A stretch of DNA of 6,033 bases from a virus (taxonomy: Duplodnaviria > Heunggongvirae > Uroviricota > Caudoviricetes). Within the stretch, counting starts at the first letter, position 1. Each line of letters begins with the position of its first letter. Of this stretch, positions 4,379 to 6,033 are shown one piece after another. The stretch lies in the IMG/VR virus record IMGVR_UViG_2695420809_000001; one strand, written 5' to 3'. A program made the position numbers and the translations under genes. The notes under the pieces were generated by a model, which saw only the letters and a program-made list of their open reading frames with translations, was not told the DNA's origin and made no database searches.

Positions 4379-4732
4379 TTATCGTCGCCGGTTAACGGCG
4401 GGTGGTTGCCCACGGTTGAGCCAGAGATAACAGCTGCCCCCGTCATCCGGAGAAACACGATCCACCCAGAACGTCTCACCATTAATGGTCAGCGTGTCAC
4501 CACGCCGCACAGCACGAACCGTATCCGTCCGCACAAATAATGACGGGCTGCTTCCTTCAATACGGACCCCGCTACCGGCAAATCCCAGCGACTCCGGATC
4601 GTCAAAAACCCCCTGAACTTCTCCGCCACACTGTGCCCCCGAGGTGAACTGTGCACAGAGCCCCATCACTTCAACAATCGTACTGTCCACCCCGGCAAGG
4701 GCAGCATCAAAGGCATTCTGAAAATCACGCAT
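4379..4732 (-). CDS. FII: Head-tail joining protein (lambda gpFII-like)
   Basis: Start chosen at the third in-frame ATG (4732-4730), giving 117 aa: MRDFQNAFDAALAGVDSTIVEVMGLCAQFTSGAQCGGEVQGVFDDPESLGFAGSGVRIEGSSPSLFVRTDTVRAVRRGDTLTINGETFWVDRVSPDDGGSCYLWLNRGQPPAVNRRR. This matches lambda gpFII in length and sequence. The start overlaps the FI stop (ATGCGTGA, 4732-4725). Stop TAA at 4381-4379. Confidence 0.92.
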   Translation of the reverse strand: MRDFQNAFDAALAGVDSTIVEVMGLCAQFTSGAQCGGEVQGVFDDPESLGFAGSGVRIEGSSPSLFVRTDTVRAVRRGDTLTINGETFWVDRVSPDDGGSCYLWLNRGQPPAVNRRR

Positions 4733-5099
4733 AAACAGCCATTCCGCCATCAACGTGTGTTTTTGCATCTGAGGACATAATCAGAATCACCCGACCAACA
4801 TCCGCAATCTCAACGGATTCCCCTGTTTCACCATCAATGCCACAGAGATGGAGGCAGGTCAGAACTCTGATGCGCGTTAACGCACCGGATGTATCCTCAC
4901 GAACATCATGAGCCGCGGTTTCCCGCTCCCGGATCACCGTATCCCCAACCTGAACATCCTCGCCGGATGACTGTATTTCCTCTTCCCATTCCGCCACCCG
5001 CTGCGCTATCTCTGCGGCACTCCCGGATATATCCGGCTCACGCCCCAGAATCAGGGCCAGTTCATCAAGCCGTTTCAGATTTTGCTCTTTCGTTGCCAT
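4725..5099 (-). CDS. FI: DNA-packaging / head assembly protein FI-like
   Basis: Lies between E and FII, as FI does in lambda. 124 aa from the ATG at 5099-5097: MATKEQNLKRLDELALILGREPDISGSAAEIAQRVAEWEEEIQ..., an acidic helical N-terminal region resembling gpFI, though more weakly than the other genes match their lambda counterparts. This start is preferred over the track start at 5147 because it has a G-rich SD (AGGGGG) 6-10 nt upstream and the longer version would run through a terminator-like hairpin. Confidence 0.78.
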   Translation of the reverse strand: MATKEQNLKRLDELALILGREPDISGSAAEIAQRVAEWEEEIQSSGEDVQVGDTVIRERETAAHDVREDTSGALTRIRVLTCLHLCGIDGETGESVEIADVGRVILIMSSDAKTHVDGGMAVYA

Positions 5100-5113
5100 A
5101 TCAGCCCCCTGTG

Positions 5114-5142
5114 AAAAAAGACACGGGGGCATTTCGCCCCCG
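5114..5142 (-). terminator. Intrinsic-terminator-like hairpin with T-tract in the E-FI intergenic region (putative partial terminator or RNA stability element)
   Basis: Minus strand immediately after the E stop reads CGGGGGC-GAAAT-GCCCCCG followed by TGTC and TTTTTT. That is a 7-bp GC stem, a 5-nt loop, a short spacer and a T6 run. Function is not demonstrated. Confidence 0.35.
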
Positions 5143-5150
5143 CTCACGGA

Positions 5151-6033
5151 TTATTTCACCTGTACCACCACAAACTCATCCGGGTCCGGCAACACCATCA
5201 GCGGCGCGGACTGCGTCATGGTAAATTCACGGGCGGGATCCCCCACCGTCAGCCAGTGTTTCGGATAACGGGAAGAGGCCACCACACCTTCGGACAACGC
5301 CTGCGCATCCTGAATGGCACCGTAACAACGGATCCCATCTGCAGCAGTATTCCCCAGAACCAGCATGCCCTCCGGCAGATAACGTTTTTCGATACCGTCT
5401 TCTGCTATATAAGACGTTTTCGCCACCACAATGGCCAGATCGCCGTAATACCCCTTGAAGGACACCACTGCGCCCAGATCTTTCACTGCCGTTTCGAGTT
5501 GAGAATTTGAACCGCGACGGGTATCCAGTTTTTCGCGGAACAGCTTAAAACCATTCAGAAGACGCCAGACGGTACCGTCCATAATGGCAATATTCACAAG
5601 ACCGCTGGCCTGGTCGCAGTAGAGGTCAAGATCATGTGTAGGATCGAACGTGTCACGATCCTGTTTTGACCACTCCTTACCACTACCCTGAGTGATGTTA
5701 TTCTTCGTCGACCTGCCAAAATCGACCTCAATTTTCTCGAACTGGTCTCCTTCCATCGTATATTTGCCATACAACACAGCATTTACCGCCTGTATTTCTT
5801 CCACCTGGACAATCGCGTGCTCTTCCTGTTTGAGGTTATCGGTAATGATACGCAGACGGCGGTAAGCCGGATCGTTCAGTTGAGCCGGATCTTCACCAGG
5901 AAGGCGCTCAACCGCCTGCTGGTAATTAAATTCGTGTTTCGGCTTGACGTAGCCCGGACGTAACACGCGGGTTTCACCACCACGATGACGCAGCACTTTT
6001 CCTTCAACAACCGGGGAGACATAGGCCGCCACC
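5151..6033 (-). CDS. E: Major capsid protein (lambda gpE-like), C-terminal ~293 residues; 5' end lies beyond the window end
   Basis: Frame open from the window edge to TAA at 5153-5151. Product ...YVSPVVEGKVLRHRGGETRVLRPGYVKPKHEFNYQQAVERLPGEDPAQLNDPAYRRLRIITDNL...NNITQGSGKEWSKQDRDTFDPTHDL...GNTAADGIRCYGAIQDAQALSEGVVASSRYPKHWLTVGDPAREFTMTQSAPLMVLPDPDEFVVVQVK aligns along its length with lambda gpE as I recall it. The 'M' opening the track ORF is a GTG at the window edge, not a real start. Confidence 0.95.
   Translation of the reverse strand, partial: VAAYVSPVVEGKVLRHRGGETRVLRPGYVKPKHEFNYQQAVERLPGEDPAQLNDPAYRRLRIITDNLKQEEHAIVQVEEIQAVNAVLYGKYTMEGDQFEKIEVDFGRSTKNNITQGSGKEWSKQDRDTFDPTHDLDLYCDQASGLVNIAIMDGTVWRLLNGFKLFREKLDTRRGSNSQLETAVKDLGAVVSFKGYYGDLAIVVAKTSYIAEDGIEKRYLPEGMLVLGNTAADGIRCYGAIQDAQALSEGVVASSRYPKHWLTVGDPAREFTMTQSAPLMVLPDPDEFVVVQVK

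What the first reader, a model, noticed from the sequence alone, without database searches (positions are those of the whole stretch)
5100..5150. E-FI intergenic region: mutually exclusive hairpins, one terminator-like and one burying the FI ribosome-binding site
On the minus strand the 51-nt gap between the E stop and the FI start reads TCCGTGAG-CGGGGGC-GAAAT-GCCCCCG-TGTCTTTTTTCAC-AGGGGGC-TGAT-ATG. The central C-run (5137-5141 on the minus-strand transcript = plus 5125-5129) can pair upstream with the first G-run to give a GC stem followed by T6, which looks like an intrinsic terminator. Alternatively it can pair downstream with AGGGGGC, which is the only plausible Shine-Dalgarno for FI. This is the largest non-coding gap in an otherwise gap-free operon. 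It sits exactly where expression must drop from an abundant shell protein (E) to a low-copy assembly factor (FI). A switch between partial termination or 3' stabilisation of the E message and occlusion of the FI SD would be an economical way to set that ratio. This is inferred from sequence only.
Basis: inference. Interest (0 to 1): 0.5.

Follow-up and report, generated by a model that had tools for sequence, protein, structure and literature searches.

The report
Terminator-like hairpin after capsid gene
The gap between the major capsid gene and the next gene of this phage-21-like prophage holds an ordinary terminator-type RNA hairpin, conserved at this spot across lambda-like phages; the proposed second hairpin that would hide the next gene's ribosome-binding site can form here, but related phages do not preserve it.

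Summary
On the minus strand the 51-nt E-FI gap (5100-5150) reads exactly as reported. It contains an 8-bp GC hairpin (5123-5143, about -17 kcal/mol) followed by GUC-U6. This is the most stable local hairpin in the window and its only coding-strand terminator-like site.

The C-run can also pair with the FI Shine-Dalgarno G-run. That state lies about 2 kcal/mol above the hairpin-A state, with an equilibrium share of about 1.3%.

Comparison separates the two structures. Every one of 51 distinct E-to-FI junctions (phage 21, lambda, Providencia, Serratia, Kluyvera, Aeromonadaceae and others) has a GC hairpin 2-17 nt after the E stop. At least eight different stem sequences occur, and the inner five pairs are standard pairs in all 27 distinct hairpins.

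The SD-burying helix is not preserved. Among 247 junctions of the 21 clade, hairpin A is essentially invariant, yet about 93 carry GGAGG, GGGAG or AGAGG SD variants with no compensating change. Other clades show no arm-dependent occlusion.

A twin hairpin follows the decoration gene. My reading is a known kind of intra-operon terminator or mRNA 3'-stabiliser next to the abundant head genes. The switch is probably incidental. Function is inferred and no transcript data were available.

The parts
5151..6033 (-). 3' part of the major capsid gene E (phage 21 gene 7 type). The stop codon TAA is at 5153-5151. The gene runs off the window end.
   Evidence: ORF 5151..6032. It is 98.5% identical to phage 21 M81255 gene 7. 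RefSeq annotates it as 'major capsid protein' in a 99.8% identical prophage.
5123..5143 (-). Hairpin A: GCGGGGGC-GAAAU-GCCCCCGU. The 5' arm is 5143-5136, the loop 5135-5131 and the 3' arm 5130-5123. It starts 7 nt after the E stop.
   Evidence: Its energy is -16.8 to -17.5 kcal/mol and its pair probability 0.92-0.99. It is the top terminator-like hit. In 14 haplotypes of the 21 clade, 100% of cells are paired and there is one compensated G-C to A-U change. Different stems occupy the same position in all 51 distinct junctions.
5114..5122 (-). GUC followed by U6, the U-rich tail of hairpin A. Seven of the 10 nt after the stem are U.
   Evidence: The U6 starts 4 nt after the stem, so the tail is not ideal for an intrinsic terminator. 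Across clades the tail ranges from 0 to 8 U in 10 nt.
5154..5159 (-). GUGAAA, the last two sense codons of E. In the predicted optimum it pairs with UUUCAC (5116-5111) as an outer helix around hairpin A.
   Evidence: Seen in the MFE and centroid structures. This helix accounts for most of the advantage of the A state over the B state (-25.3 against -23.5). It is a prediction only.
5104..5110 (-). AGGGGGC, the FI Shine-Dalgarno. The GGGGG run is at 5109-5105, 5 nt before the AUG. It is also the 3' strand of the alternative helix B.
   Evidence: The duplex with the 16S 3' end is -9.4 kcal/mol. It is annotated as a putative RBS in M81255. It is the most variable segment of the gap in the 21 clade.
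5104..5130 (-). Alternative helix B: GCCCCCGUG (5130-5122) paired with CAC-A-GGGGGC (5113-5104) across the U-tract loop. It is mutually exclusive with hairpin A and with its outer helix.
   Evidence: Its energy is -13.2 for the 6-bp version and -15.6 to -16.8 for the extended version. The equilibrium probability is 0.013. It is not preserved: 85.7% of cells are paired, with 18 unpaired cells over 14 haplotypes, and about 93 of 247 junctions have an A inside the G-run.
4725..5099 (-). The FI gene (DNA-packaging chaperone, 124 aa, N-terminus MATKEQNLKRL...). Its ATG is at 5099-5097.
   Evidence: RefSeq annotates gpFI at the equivalent position, and M81255 annotates ORF1. The N-terminus is homologous to lambda FI MTKDELIARL. 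The longer ORF 4725..5147 is an in-frame upstream extension that is not conserved.

Best explanation
The gap holds a conserved, terminator-type RNA stem-loop (hairpin A plus a U-rich tail) that marks the 3' boundary of the major capsid cistron in the late operon of lambda-like phages.

Shown:
- The hairpin exists, and it is the strongest local structure in the window.
- A GC hairpin occupies this exact position (2-17 nt after the E stop and 17-27 nt before the FI AUG) in every E-to-FI junction examined, despite unrelated stem sequences.
- A second such hairpin follows the other abundant head gene (D or the decoration gene).

Inferred:
- Late transcription in these phages is driven by Q-modified, terminator-resistant RNA polymerase (established knowledge of lambda Q). 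Most polymerases should therefore read through.
- The hairpin then works mainly on the RNA, as a barrier to 3'-to-5' exonucleases and a site of 3'-end formation. This would keep the D and E message segments longer-lived, or more abundant, than the FI-to-tail segment.
- Some leaky termination of unmodified polymerase is a likely secondary effect.
- This would raise the E:FI (and head:tail) output ratio without any switch.

The alternative helix B, which buries the FI Shine-Dalgarno, is a lineage-specific by-product. It arises because a C5 arm sits next to a G-rich SD. It is not a selected regulator.
For: - Hairpin A is about -17 kcal/mol, the best terminator-like hit and the best local hairpin in the window.
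- All 51 distinct E-to-FI junctions carry a hairpin of -8 to -22 kcal/mol at the same place. The sources are E. coli, Shigella, E. albertii, Providencia, Trabulsiella, Serratia, Buttiauxella, Erwinia, Kluyvera, Citrobacter, Enterobacter, Klebsiella, Pluralibacter, Phytobacter, Dryocola and an Aeromonadaceae MAG.
- In 27 distinct hairpins, pairs 1-5 are standard pairs in 27 of 27, with G-C to C-G swaps at pairs 2 and 3. In register, 157 of 162 cells are paired, against 94 and 81 of 162 when the partner is slid by 1 or 2.
- Within the 21 clade, 100% of cells pair. All substitutions are wobble or compensated. The only other changes to the hairpin are single-base insertions or deletions in the G and C runs, seen in 4 of 18 haplotypes; these were left out of the alignment counted.
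- Lambda itself has ATGGCCC-UUCG-GGGCCAU plus UGUUUCUCU in the same gap.
- Twin hairpins follow the decoration gene in the 21 type and in lambda. They are the two best coding-strand sites in 12 kb of late operon.
- Some lineages keep the hairpin but have no U-tract (L090, L092, L112). This argues that the stem, not efficient termination, is the selected feature.
- Intra-late-operon terminators after the procapsid module are reported for P22-like phages, with 'roles not known' (PMC8022706).
- B is not preserved.
Against: - No transcript 3'-end, half-life or expression data could be consulted. The stabiliser role is therefore inference from position, conservation and analogy.
- Most lineages do keep a U-rich tail. 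A pure exonuclease barrier would not need one, so real termination may matter more than I assume.
- The hairpin lies only 2-12 nt from the stop codon in most clades. Terminating ribosomes may melt it repeatedly.
- B is thermodynamically close to A in this particular window, about 2 kcal/mol apart in context. It ranks in the top 3% or so of grafted controls. One haplotype shows a three-way compatible change (L086).
Confidence: 0.55

Rival explanations
1. The hairpin is an insulating terminator. Its main job is transcriptional: it stops RNA polymerases that entered the late operon without Q modification, such as spurious initiation in the lysogen. Q-modified polymerase ignores it, so it has no effect on E:FI stoichiometry during lytic growth.
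For: - It has the form of an intrinsic terminator: stem, loop and U-rich tail.
- Most clades retain a U-rich tail.
- This possibility is stated explicitly for the P22-like intra-operon terminator (PMC8022706).
- The concept is also discussed for antiterminated conjugation operons, to judge from the abstract of PMC8955417 in the search listing.
Against: - Only two such sites occur in 12 kb of late operon, and both flank the two most abundant head genes rather than being spread out.
- The U-tract is lost in several lineages that keep the hairpin.
- Here the U6 is separated from the stem by GUC.
- The hairpin sits so close to the stop codon that it would be weakened on translated RNA.
Confidence: 0.2
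2. A and B are alternative states. A ribosome terminating on the E stop codon covers the base of hairpin A, which frees the C-run to capture the FI Shine-Dalgarno. Heavy E translation (or partial termination) would then lower FI initiation.
For: - A and B share the C-run and are mutually exclusive. In context the two states are only about 2 kcal/mol apart.
- Masking the whole 5' arm raises the SD opening cost from 1.1 to 11.3 kcal/mol. Masking only 10 nt after the stop, to model a ribosome on the stop codon, flips the optimum to B and gives 4.2 kcal/mol.
- Native B is in the top 3% or so of grafted initiation regions.
- The L086 haplotype changes all three runs compatibly: GGGAGC, GCUCCC and AGGAGC.
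Against: - About 93 of 247 junctions in the 21 clade have an A inside the SD G-run with an unchanged C-run. The commonest of these, GGAGG (n=68), drops the ribosome-on-stop cost to 1.5 kcal/mol.
- In 14 haplotypes B has 18 unpaired cells, against none for A.
- Lambda-type and all other clades show no arm-dependent occlusion.
- The equilibrium share of B is 1.3%, and A forms first during transcription.
- The result depends on the assumed ribosome footprint.
Confidence: 0.07
3. The hairpin is a translational insulator. Its selected role is to separate E termination from FI initiation. It would block ribosome sliding and re-initiation, and set a defined local structure for the FI initiation region. 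FI would then be translated only by independent, weaker initiation.
For: - Spacing is constant: 17-27 nt from the hairpin to the AUG, with the SD directly after the tail, in all clades.
- All other junctions in the operon are overlapping or 26 nt or less apart, which suggests coupling elsewhere.
- Lambda-type FI initiation regions are themselves partly structured, with an opening cost of 4.7-6 kcal/mol.
Against: - This does not explain the U-rich tails.
- It does not explain the twin hairpin upstream of E, a gene that must be translated very efficiently.
- SD opening costs vary from 0 to 6 kcal/mol among clades, so no common FI set-point is evident.
Confidence: 0.1

Closest known systems
The E-FI intergenic hairpin of phage lambda itself (NC_001416 7163-7180, ATGGCCC-TTCG-GGGCCAT followed by TGTTTCTCTG)
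   Same: It lies in the same gap between homologous genes, at the same distance logic (2 nt after the stop, 21 nt before the AUG). It is a GC stem with a pyrimidine-rich tail and was picked up by the same scan.
   Different: The stem sequence is unrelated, 7 bp with a UUCG loop. In lambda the arm next to the SD is the G-rich GGGCCAU arm, so no SD-capturing alternative exists. Instead the lambda FI initiation region forms its own small hairpin. I found no paper that assigns it a function.
[quoted passage not shown]
   Same: It is a predicted rho-independent terminator inside a single-promoter, antiterminated late operon, directly after the capsid-building genes. The authors state that such terminators are not unique and that their roles are unknown. 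They offer partial termination or blocking of spurious transcription as possibilities.
   Different: The capsid gene family and the phage group are different. That case is prediction only, and no comparative or covariation analysis was reported there. Homology of the element is not implied.
Intercistronic mRNA-stabilising stem-loops in bacterial operons (malE-malF REP elements, the Rhodobacter puf operon, papB-papA). This comparison rests on established knowledge and was not checked here.
   Same: In each case a stable stem-loop lies directly 3' of the cistron needed in excess. The upstream segment is protected from 3'-to-5' decay, which gives unequal protein output from one transcript.
   Different: For the phage hairpin no half-life or 3'-end data exist, so the resemblance is positional and structural only. 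The sequence is not a REP element, and Rfam gives no match.
Attenuator-type alternative hairpins and SD-sequestering switches (trp and erm leaders, translational riboswitches). This comparison rests on established knowledge.
   Same: One strand (the C-run) can pair with either of two partners. One state is terminator-like and the other hides a Shine-Dalgarno.
   Different: In true attenuators both helices are conserved and a trigger is known. Here only helix A is conserved, B forms after the terminator decision point, and no trigger is evident.

Membership tests
Rho-independent (intrinsic) terminator | GC-rich stem of about 5-14 bp with a 3-8 nt loop | tested here: met
   The stem has 8-9 pairs, 7 of them G-C, with a loop of 3-5 nt and an energy of about -17 kcal/mol.
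Rho-independent (intrinsic) terminator | U-tract directly following the stem | tested here: inconclusive
   U6 is present but begins 4 nt after the stem (GUC spacer). Seven of the first 10 nt are U, and the site passes the consensus scan. Across homologous junctions the tail ranges from 0 to 8 U in 10 nt and is absent in L090, L092 and L112.
Rho-independent (intrinsic) terminator | Causes transcript release, with RNA 3' ends at the U-tract | not testable with these tools
   No Term-seq or RNA-seq data were accessible. The EHEC Term-seq of PMC7547250 is deposited only in GEO.
Intercistronic mRNA-stabilising stem-loop | Stable stem-loop immediately 3' of the more highly expressed cistron of a polycistronic mRNA | tested here: met
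   The hairpin starts 7 nt after the stop of the major capsid gene. A twin hairpin follows the decoration gene.
Intercistronic mRNA-stabilising stem-loop | Structure rather than sequence is conserved among homologous operons | tested here: met
   At least eight stem classes occur at one position. Pairs 1-5 are standard pairs in 27 of 27 distinct hairpins, with G-C to C-G swaps. In the 21 clade 100% of cells are paired.
Intercistronic mRNA-stabilising stem-loop | The upstream segment has a longer half-life that depends on the stem-loop | not testable with these tools
   This needs rifampicin-chase or mutant analysis.
Alternative-hairpin regulatory switch (attenuator or SD-sequestering riboregulator) | Two mutually exclusive helices that share one strand | tested here: met
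   The C-run 5125-5129 pairs either with 5137-5141 (A) or with 5105-5109 (B).
Alternative-hairpin regulatory switch (attenuator or SD-sequestering riboregulator) | Both helices are conserved or covary in related sequences | tested here: not met
   A is conserved. In B, 85.7% of cells are paired, with 18 unpaired cells. About 93 of 247 junctions in the 21 clade have uncompensated SD changes. Other clades show no arm-dependent occlusion.
Alternative-hairpin regulatory switch (attenuator or SD-sequestering riboregulator) | A trigger that shifts the balance between the states | tested here: inconclusive
   At equilibrium P(B) is 0.013. Modelling a ribosome on the E stop codon gives an SD opening cost of 4.2 kcal/mol in this haplotype, but 1.5 in the common GGAGG variant.
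Any curated RNA family (Rfam 15) | Match to a covariance model | tested here: not met
   There is no match in or near 5100-5150, even at an E-value cut-off of 1.

The most novel reading that the evidence does not exclude
In the canonical phage-21 haplotype carried by this window, the hairpin could act as a ribosome-gated anti-coupling device. Each ribosome terminating on the heavily translated E cistron would open the base of hairpin A. The C-run could then be captured by the FI Shine-Dalgarno in the near-isoenergetic helix B. FI initiation would be throttled in proportion to E translation. This would be a lineage-specific refinement added to an ancestral terminator or stabiliser hairpin.
Probability: 0.06. 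Interest if true: 0.55.

Novelty: new member of a known kind. Interest (0 to 1): 0.22.

Why it matters
How lambda-like phages obtain very different amounts of protein from one long late transcript is a classical question, and it has usually been answered by differences in translation initiation. The comparative result is new in that I found no publication of it. A structure-conserved hairpin follows the E gene in every lambda-like E-to-FI junction examined, and a twin follows the decoration gene. This points to an RNA-level element that brackets the two most abundant head genes. Existing lambda tools can test it directly. It also gives a concrete, conserved example of the 'intra-operon terminators of unknown role' noted for P22-like phages. 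The more striking idea of a terminator-versus-SD-occlusion switch does not survive comparison, so the finding is essentially ordinary.

Tried and rejected
- Rfam scan of the whole window at an E-value cut-off of 1: nothing relevant.
- The whole-region shuffle z-score is uninformative, because shuffled G and C runs also fold.
- MAFFT across clades misaligned the hairpins. It aligned the 21-type 3' arm ATGCCCCC to the lambda 5' arm ATGGCCC. I read this as a low-complexity coincidence, and counted pairs anchored on the loop in Python instead.
- My first start-codon finder picked the in-frame ATG inside the hairpin loop. I corrected this using FI N-terminal homology.
- The grafting control for helix B was contaminated by the junction's own 5' arm, which was scored as an initiation region. 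Its p-value of about 0.02-0.03 is therefore rough.
- I considered that the ORF extension 4725-5147 (GTG at 5147, or the loop ATG at 5133-5131) encodes a longer FI. I rejected this because single-base insertions or deletions in variants L003 and L004 break the frame.
- I considered B as an anti-terminator. I rejected this because its 3' strand is transcribed after the U-tract.
- I considered an antisense terminator. On the plus strand the hairpin is preceded by the A-tract and followed only by a weak T-content.
- Literature: Liu 2013, Popovic 2012, Sampson 1988 and Casjens & Hendrix 2015 are not held. Several searches returned nothing useful. I found no paper on the E-FI hairpin and no FI abundance figure.

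Full report
**What the window is.** The window is a piece of a lambda-like prophage late operon read on the minus strand. It runs from the major capsid gene E (partial) through FI, FII, Z, U, V, G and T to the start of H.
- It is 99.8% identical to prophages in several E. coli chromosomes. RefSeq annotates 'major capsid protein' followed by 'DNA-packaging protein FI (gpFI)' at the positions concerned.
- The E-to-FI junction is 98.5% identical to phage 21 (M81255: gene 7, a putative RBS, ORF1).
- The rest of the window is closer to other lambdoid phages.

**Checking the observation.** The minus strand reads TAA-TCCGTGA-GCGGGGGC-GAAAT-GCCCCCGT-GTC-TTTTTT-CAC-AGGGGGC-TGAT-ATG. The E stop is at 5153-5151 and the FI ATG at 5099-5097, so the gap is 51 nt, exactly as reported.
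- Hairpin A (5143-5123) has 8 pairs at about -17 kcal/mol.
- It is the top hit of the terminator scan and the only hit on the coding strand.
- It is the most stable hairpin of 25 nt or less in the whole window on either strand, at -17.5 against -14.7 for the next.
- The alternative helix B is real. The C-run arm GCCCCCGUG pairs with CAC-A-GGGGGC, which contains the FI Shine-Dalgarno. Its energy is -13.2 for six pairs and -15.6 to -16.8 when extended.
- In an 81-nt context the best A-containing fold is -25.3 and the best B-containing fold is -23.5 kcal/mol. A gains from an outer helix between the last codons of E (GUGAAA) and UUUCAC.
- Equilibrium pair probabilities are 0.987 for A and 0.013 for B.
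- With A formed, the SD is nearly free, with an opening cost of 1.1 kcal/mol.
- The gap is the largest downstream of E in the annotated operon.

**Comparative evidence for hairpin A.** I collected E-downstream regions from one genome per species, from IMG/VR viral contigs, from GenBank phages and from metagenomes. After removing duplicates there were 51 distinct E-to-FI junctions.
- Every junction has a GC-rich hairpin (-8 to -22 kcal/mol) that begins 2-17 nt after the E stop and ends 10-27 nt before the FI AUG (17-27 nt in all but L090, L092 and L112).
- The stems differ between clades:
  - GCGGGGGC/GCCCCCGU (phage 21 type);
  - AUGGCCC/GGGCCAU with a UUCG loop (lambda);
  - GUGGCCC/GGGCCAC;
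  - CGGCCC/GGGCCG;
  - CGGCGGG/CCCGCCG (Providencia);
  - CAUGCCCC/GGGGCAUG (Aeromonadaceae);
  - GCACCACGGUC/GGCCGUGGUGC (Trabulsiella);
  - and others.
- In 27 distinct hairpins aligned on the loop, pairs 1-5 are standard pairs in 27 of 27, with G-C to C-G swaps at pairs 2 and 3. In register, 157 of 162 cells pair, against 94 and 81 of 162 when the partner is slid by one or two positions.
- Inside the 21 clade, 14 haplotypes give 100% paired cells. The only substitutions are wobble changes or one compensated G-C to A-U change. Single-base insertions or deletions in the G and C runs also occur, in 4 of 18 haplotypes; those haplotypes were not part of this count.
- The U-rich tail is less constant, from 0 to 8 U in the first 10 nt. 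It is absent in L090, L092 and L112, where the SD follows the stem almost directly.
- A distant E homologue in Methylorubrum (28% identity) is also followed by a strong hairpin. A Kosakonia locus whose next gene is not FI has none.

**A twin hairpin.** Just upstream of the window, the gap between the decoration gene and E carries another 9-bp hairpin (TCAGGCCACC-GCGG-GGTGGCCTGA). Lambda has GCCGC-CTGT-GCGGC followed by T7 in its D-E gap. In 12 kb of the late operon of the matching E. coli prophage, the two best coding-strand terminator-like sites are exactly these two gaps. The hairpins therefore bracket the two most abundant head genes.

**Comparative evidence against helix B.** In the 21 clade, the SD and spacer form the most variable part of the gap.
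- Among 247 junctions, which are not independent samples, hairpin A is unchanged in about 232.
- The SD reads GGGGGC in 117, GGAGGC in 68, GGGGGA in 22 and GGGAGC in 14. The rest read AGAGGC, AGAGGG, GGAGAC or GGGGA.
- About 93 junctions therefore have an A opposite an unchanged C.
- On 14 haplotypes, B has 85.7% paired cells, with 18 unpaired cells. One row is shifted by a column in that alignment, which slightly overstates the mismatches.
- Modelling gives a clear contrast. With the 5' arm of A masked, opening the SD costs 11.3 kcal/mol in the window's haplotype, but 5.1 for GGAGG, 3.6 for GGGAG and 2.5-2.7 for AGAGG types. With a ribosome parked on the E stop (10 nt masked) the values are 4.2, 1.5, 2.7 and about 3.
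- In lambda-type and other clades the opening cost is the same with or without masking, so no switch exists there.
- Lambda's FI initiation region instead forms its own small hairpin, GUGGA-GGAG-UCCAU.
- The one point in favour of B is the L086 and L155 haplotype (GGGAGC, GCUCCC, AGGAGC), in which all three runs change compatibly. AGGAG is simply the SD consensus, however, and only a few copies exist.
- Grafting other SD-bearing initiation regions behind the C-run shows that 22% reach -10 kcal/mol or better. The native one lies in the top 3% or so. The complementarity is somewhat unusual but not extraordinary for a C5 arm next to a G-rich SD.

**Mechanistic reasoning.**
- B cannot influence termination, because its 3' strand is synthesised after the U-tract.
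- On read-through RNA, A forms first and is favoured at equilibrium, so the default state exposes the SD.
- Late operons of lambdoid phages are transcribed by Q-modified polymerase, which ignores terminators (established knowledge). Efficient termination at this site during lytic growth is therefore unlikely.
- The stem is retained without the U-tract in some lineages. Taken with the points above, this suggests that the RNA structure itself is the selected feature.
- The most economical reading is a 3'-end-forming and exonuclease-blocking stem-loop. It would prolong the D and E message segments relative to FI and the tail genes, with leaky termination of unmodified polymerase as a secondary or alternative role.
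- This reading is an inference. I could not access any transcript-end or half-life data.

**Literature.**
[quoted passage not shown] It suggests partial termination or blocking of spurious transcription (PMC8022706).
- gpFI is described as a packaging chaperone that binds the gpE lattice (PMC4856287). It is absent from the virion proteins found by mass spectrometry (PMC10721106).
- Key older papers were not held.

**Verdict.**
- Hairpin A is a genuine, structure-conserved element of a known kind: an intra-operon terminator or stabiliser after the capsid gene. It is present in lambda itself.
- The proposed A/B switch is thermodynamically possible in this haplotype.
- It survives only as a low-probability, lineage-specific possibility, about 0.06 in a ribosome-gated form.
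- Interest is low to moderate, and the novelty class is a new member of a known kind.

Noticed in passing
Outside the window: L265 2805-2826, equal to L010 1304-1325; lambda NC_001416 about 6100-6122: A second strong hairpin sits in the 57-nt gap between the decoration (D-like) gene and E. It is TCAGGCCACC-GCGG-GGTGGCCTGA in the 21 type and GCCGC-CTGT-GCGGC followed by T7 in lambda. Together with the E-FI hairpin it brackets the two most abundant head genes. These are the two best coding-strand terminator-like sites in 12 kb of late operon.
   Followed up: partly
window 5131-5133 and 5145-5147 (minus strand): The ATG formed by the hairpin loop and 3' arm (GAA-AUG) and an upstream GTG are in frame with FI. 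This is why ORF listing reports a 140-aa ORF 4725-5147. The 5' arm GGGGG lies 4 nt upstream of that ATG, like an SD. Natural one-base insertions or deletions (L003, L004) break the frame, so it is not a conserved N-terminal extension.
   Followed up: yes
L002 1183-1207 (lambda 7182-7206): Lambda's FI initiation region folds into a small hairpin, GUGGA-GGAG-UCCAU, which ties up part of the SD and the AU of the start codon. The SD opening cost is 4.7-6 kcal/mol, against about 1 in the 21 type. The two clades therefore differ markedly in predicted FI initiation-site accessibility.
   Followed up: partly
window 4950-5350 compared with the whole window: There is a mosaic boundary. The E 3' end and the gap are 98.5% identical to phage 21, while the window as a whole is only about 84.5% identical to phage 21 and 93-94% identical to PhiR12-type phages. 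At least three FI alleles (MATKEQNLKRLDEL, MATKEENQKRLREL, MATKEENLNRLRQL) sit behind the same hairpin, so recombination joints fall at or just after the SD.
   Followed up: partly
L093-L108, L127-L137 (genome-contig hits): Short contigs in assemblies of unrelated organisms carry sequence identical to lambda E-FI. The organisms include Neobacillus, Kitasatospora, Bradyrhizobium, Paenibacillus, Prevotella and Enterococcus. This is almost certainly lambda DNA contamination of those assemblies.
   Followed up: no
window 4725-4732: FI and FII overlap by 8 nt, taking the FII start at 4732 from the phage 21 and RefSeq annotation. The longest-ORF start listed at 4768 is upstream of the annotated one. 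All junctions downstream of FI are overlaps or gaps of 26 nt or less.
   Followed up: partly
L140 about 2391-2420 (Methylorubrum rhodesianum) and L143 (Kosakonia): A very distant E-family capsid gene (28% identity) in an alphaproteobacterial prophage is also followed by a strong GC hairpin (GGCGGCGCCC-TCAC-GGGCGCCGTC) 8 nt after its stop. A Kosakonia locus (43-54% identity), where the next gene is not FI, has only a 10-nt gap and no hairpin.
   Followed up: partly
alignment A2: MAFFT aligned the 21-type segment AAATGCCCCCG (loop and 3' arm) to lambda's TCATGGCCCTTCG (5' arm). The 21-type 5' arm then looks like an insertion relative to lambda. This is probably a low-complexity coincidence, and I did not pursue it.
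   Followed up: no
H95, NZ_CM149869.1: One otherwise 99.8% identical E. coli prophage copy carries an ISEc23 (IS66-family) insertion within this late-gene segment.
   Followed up: no
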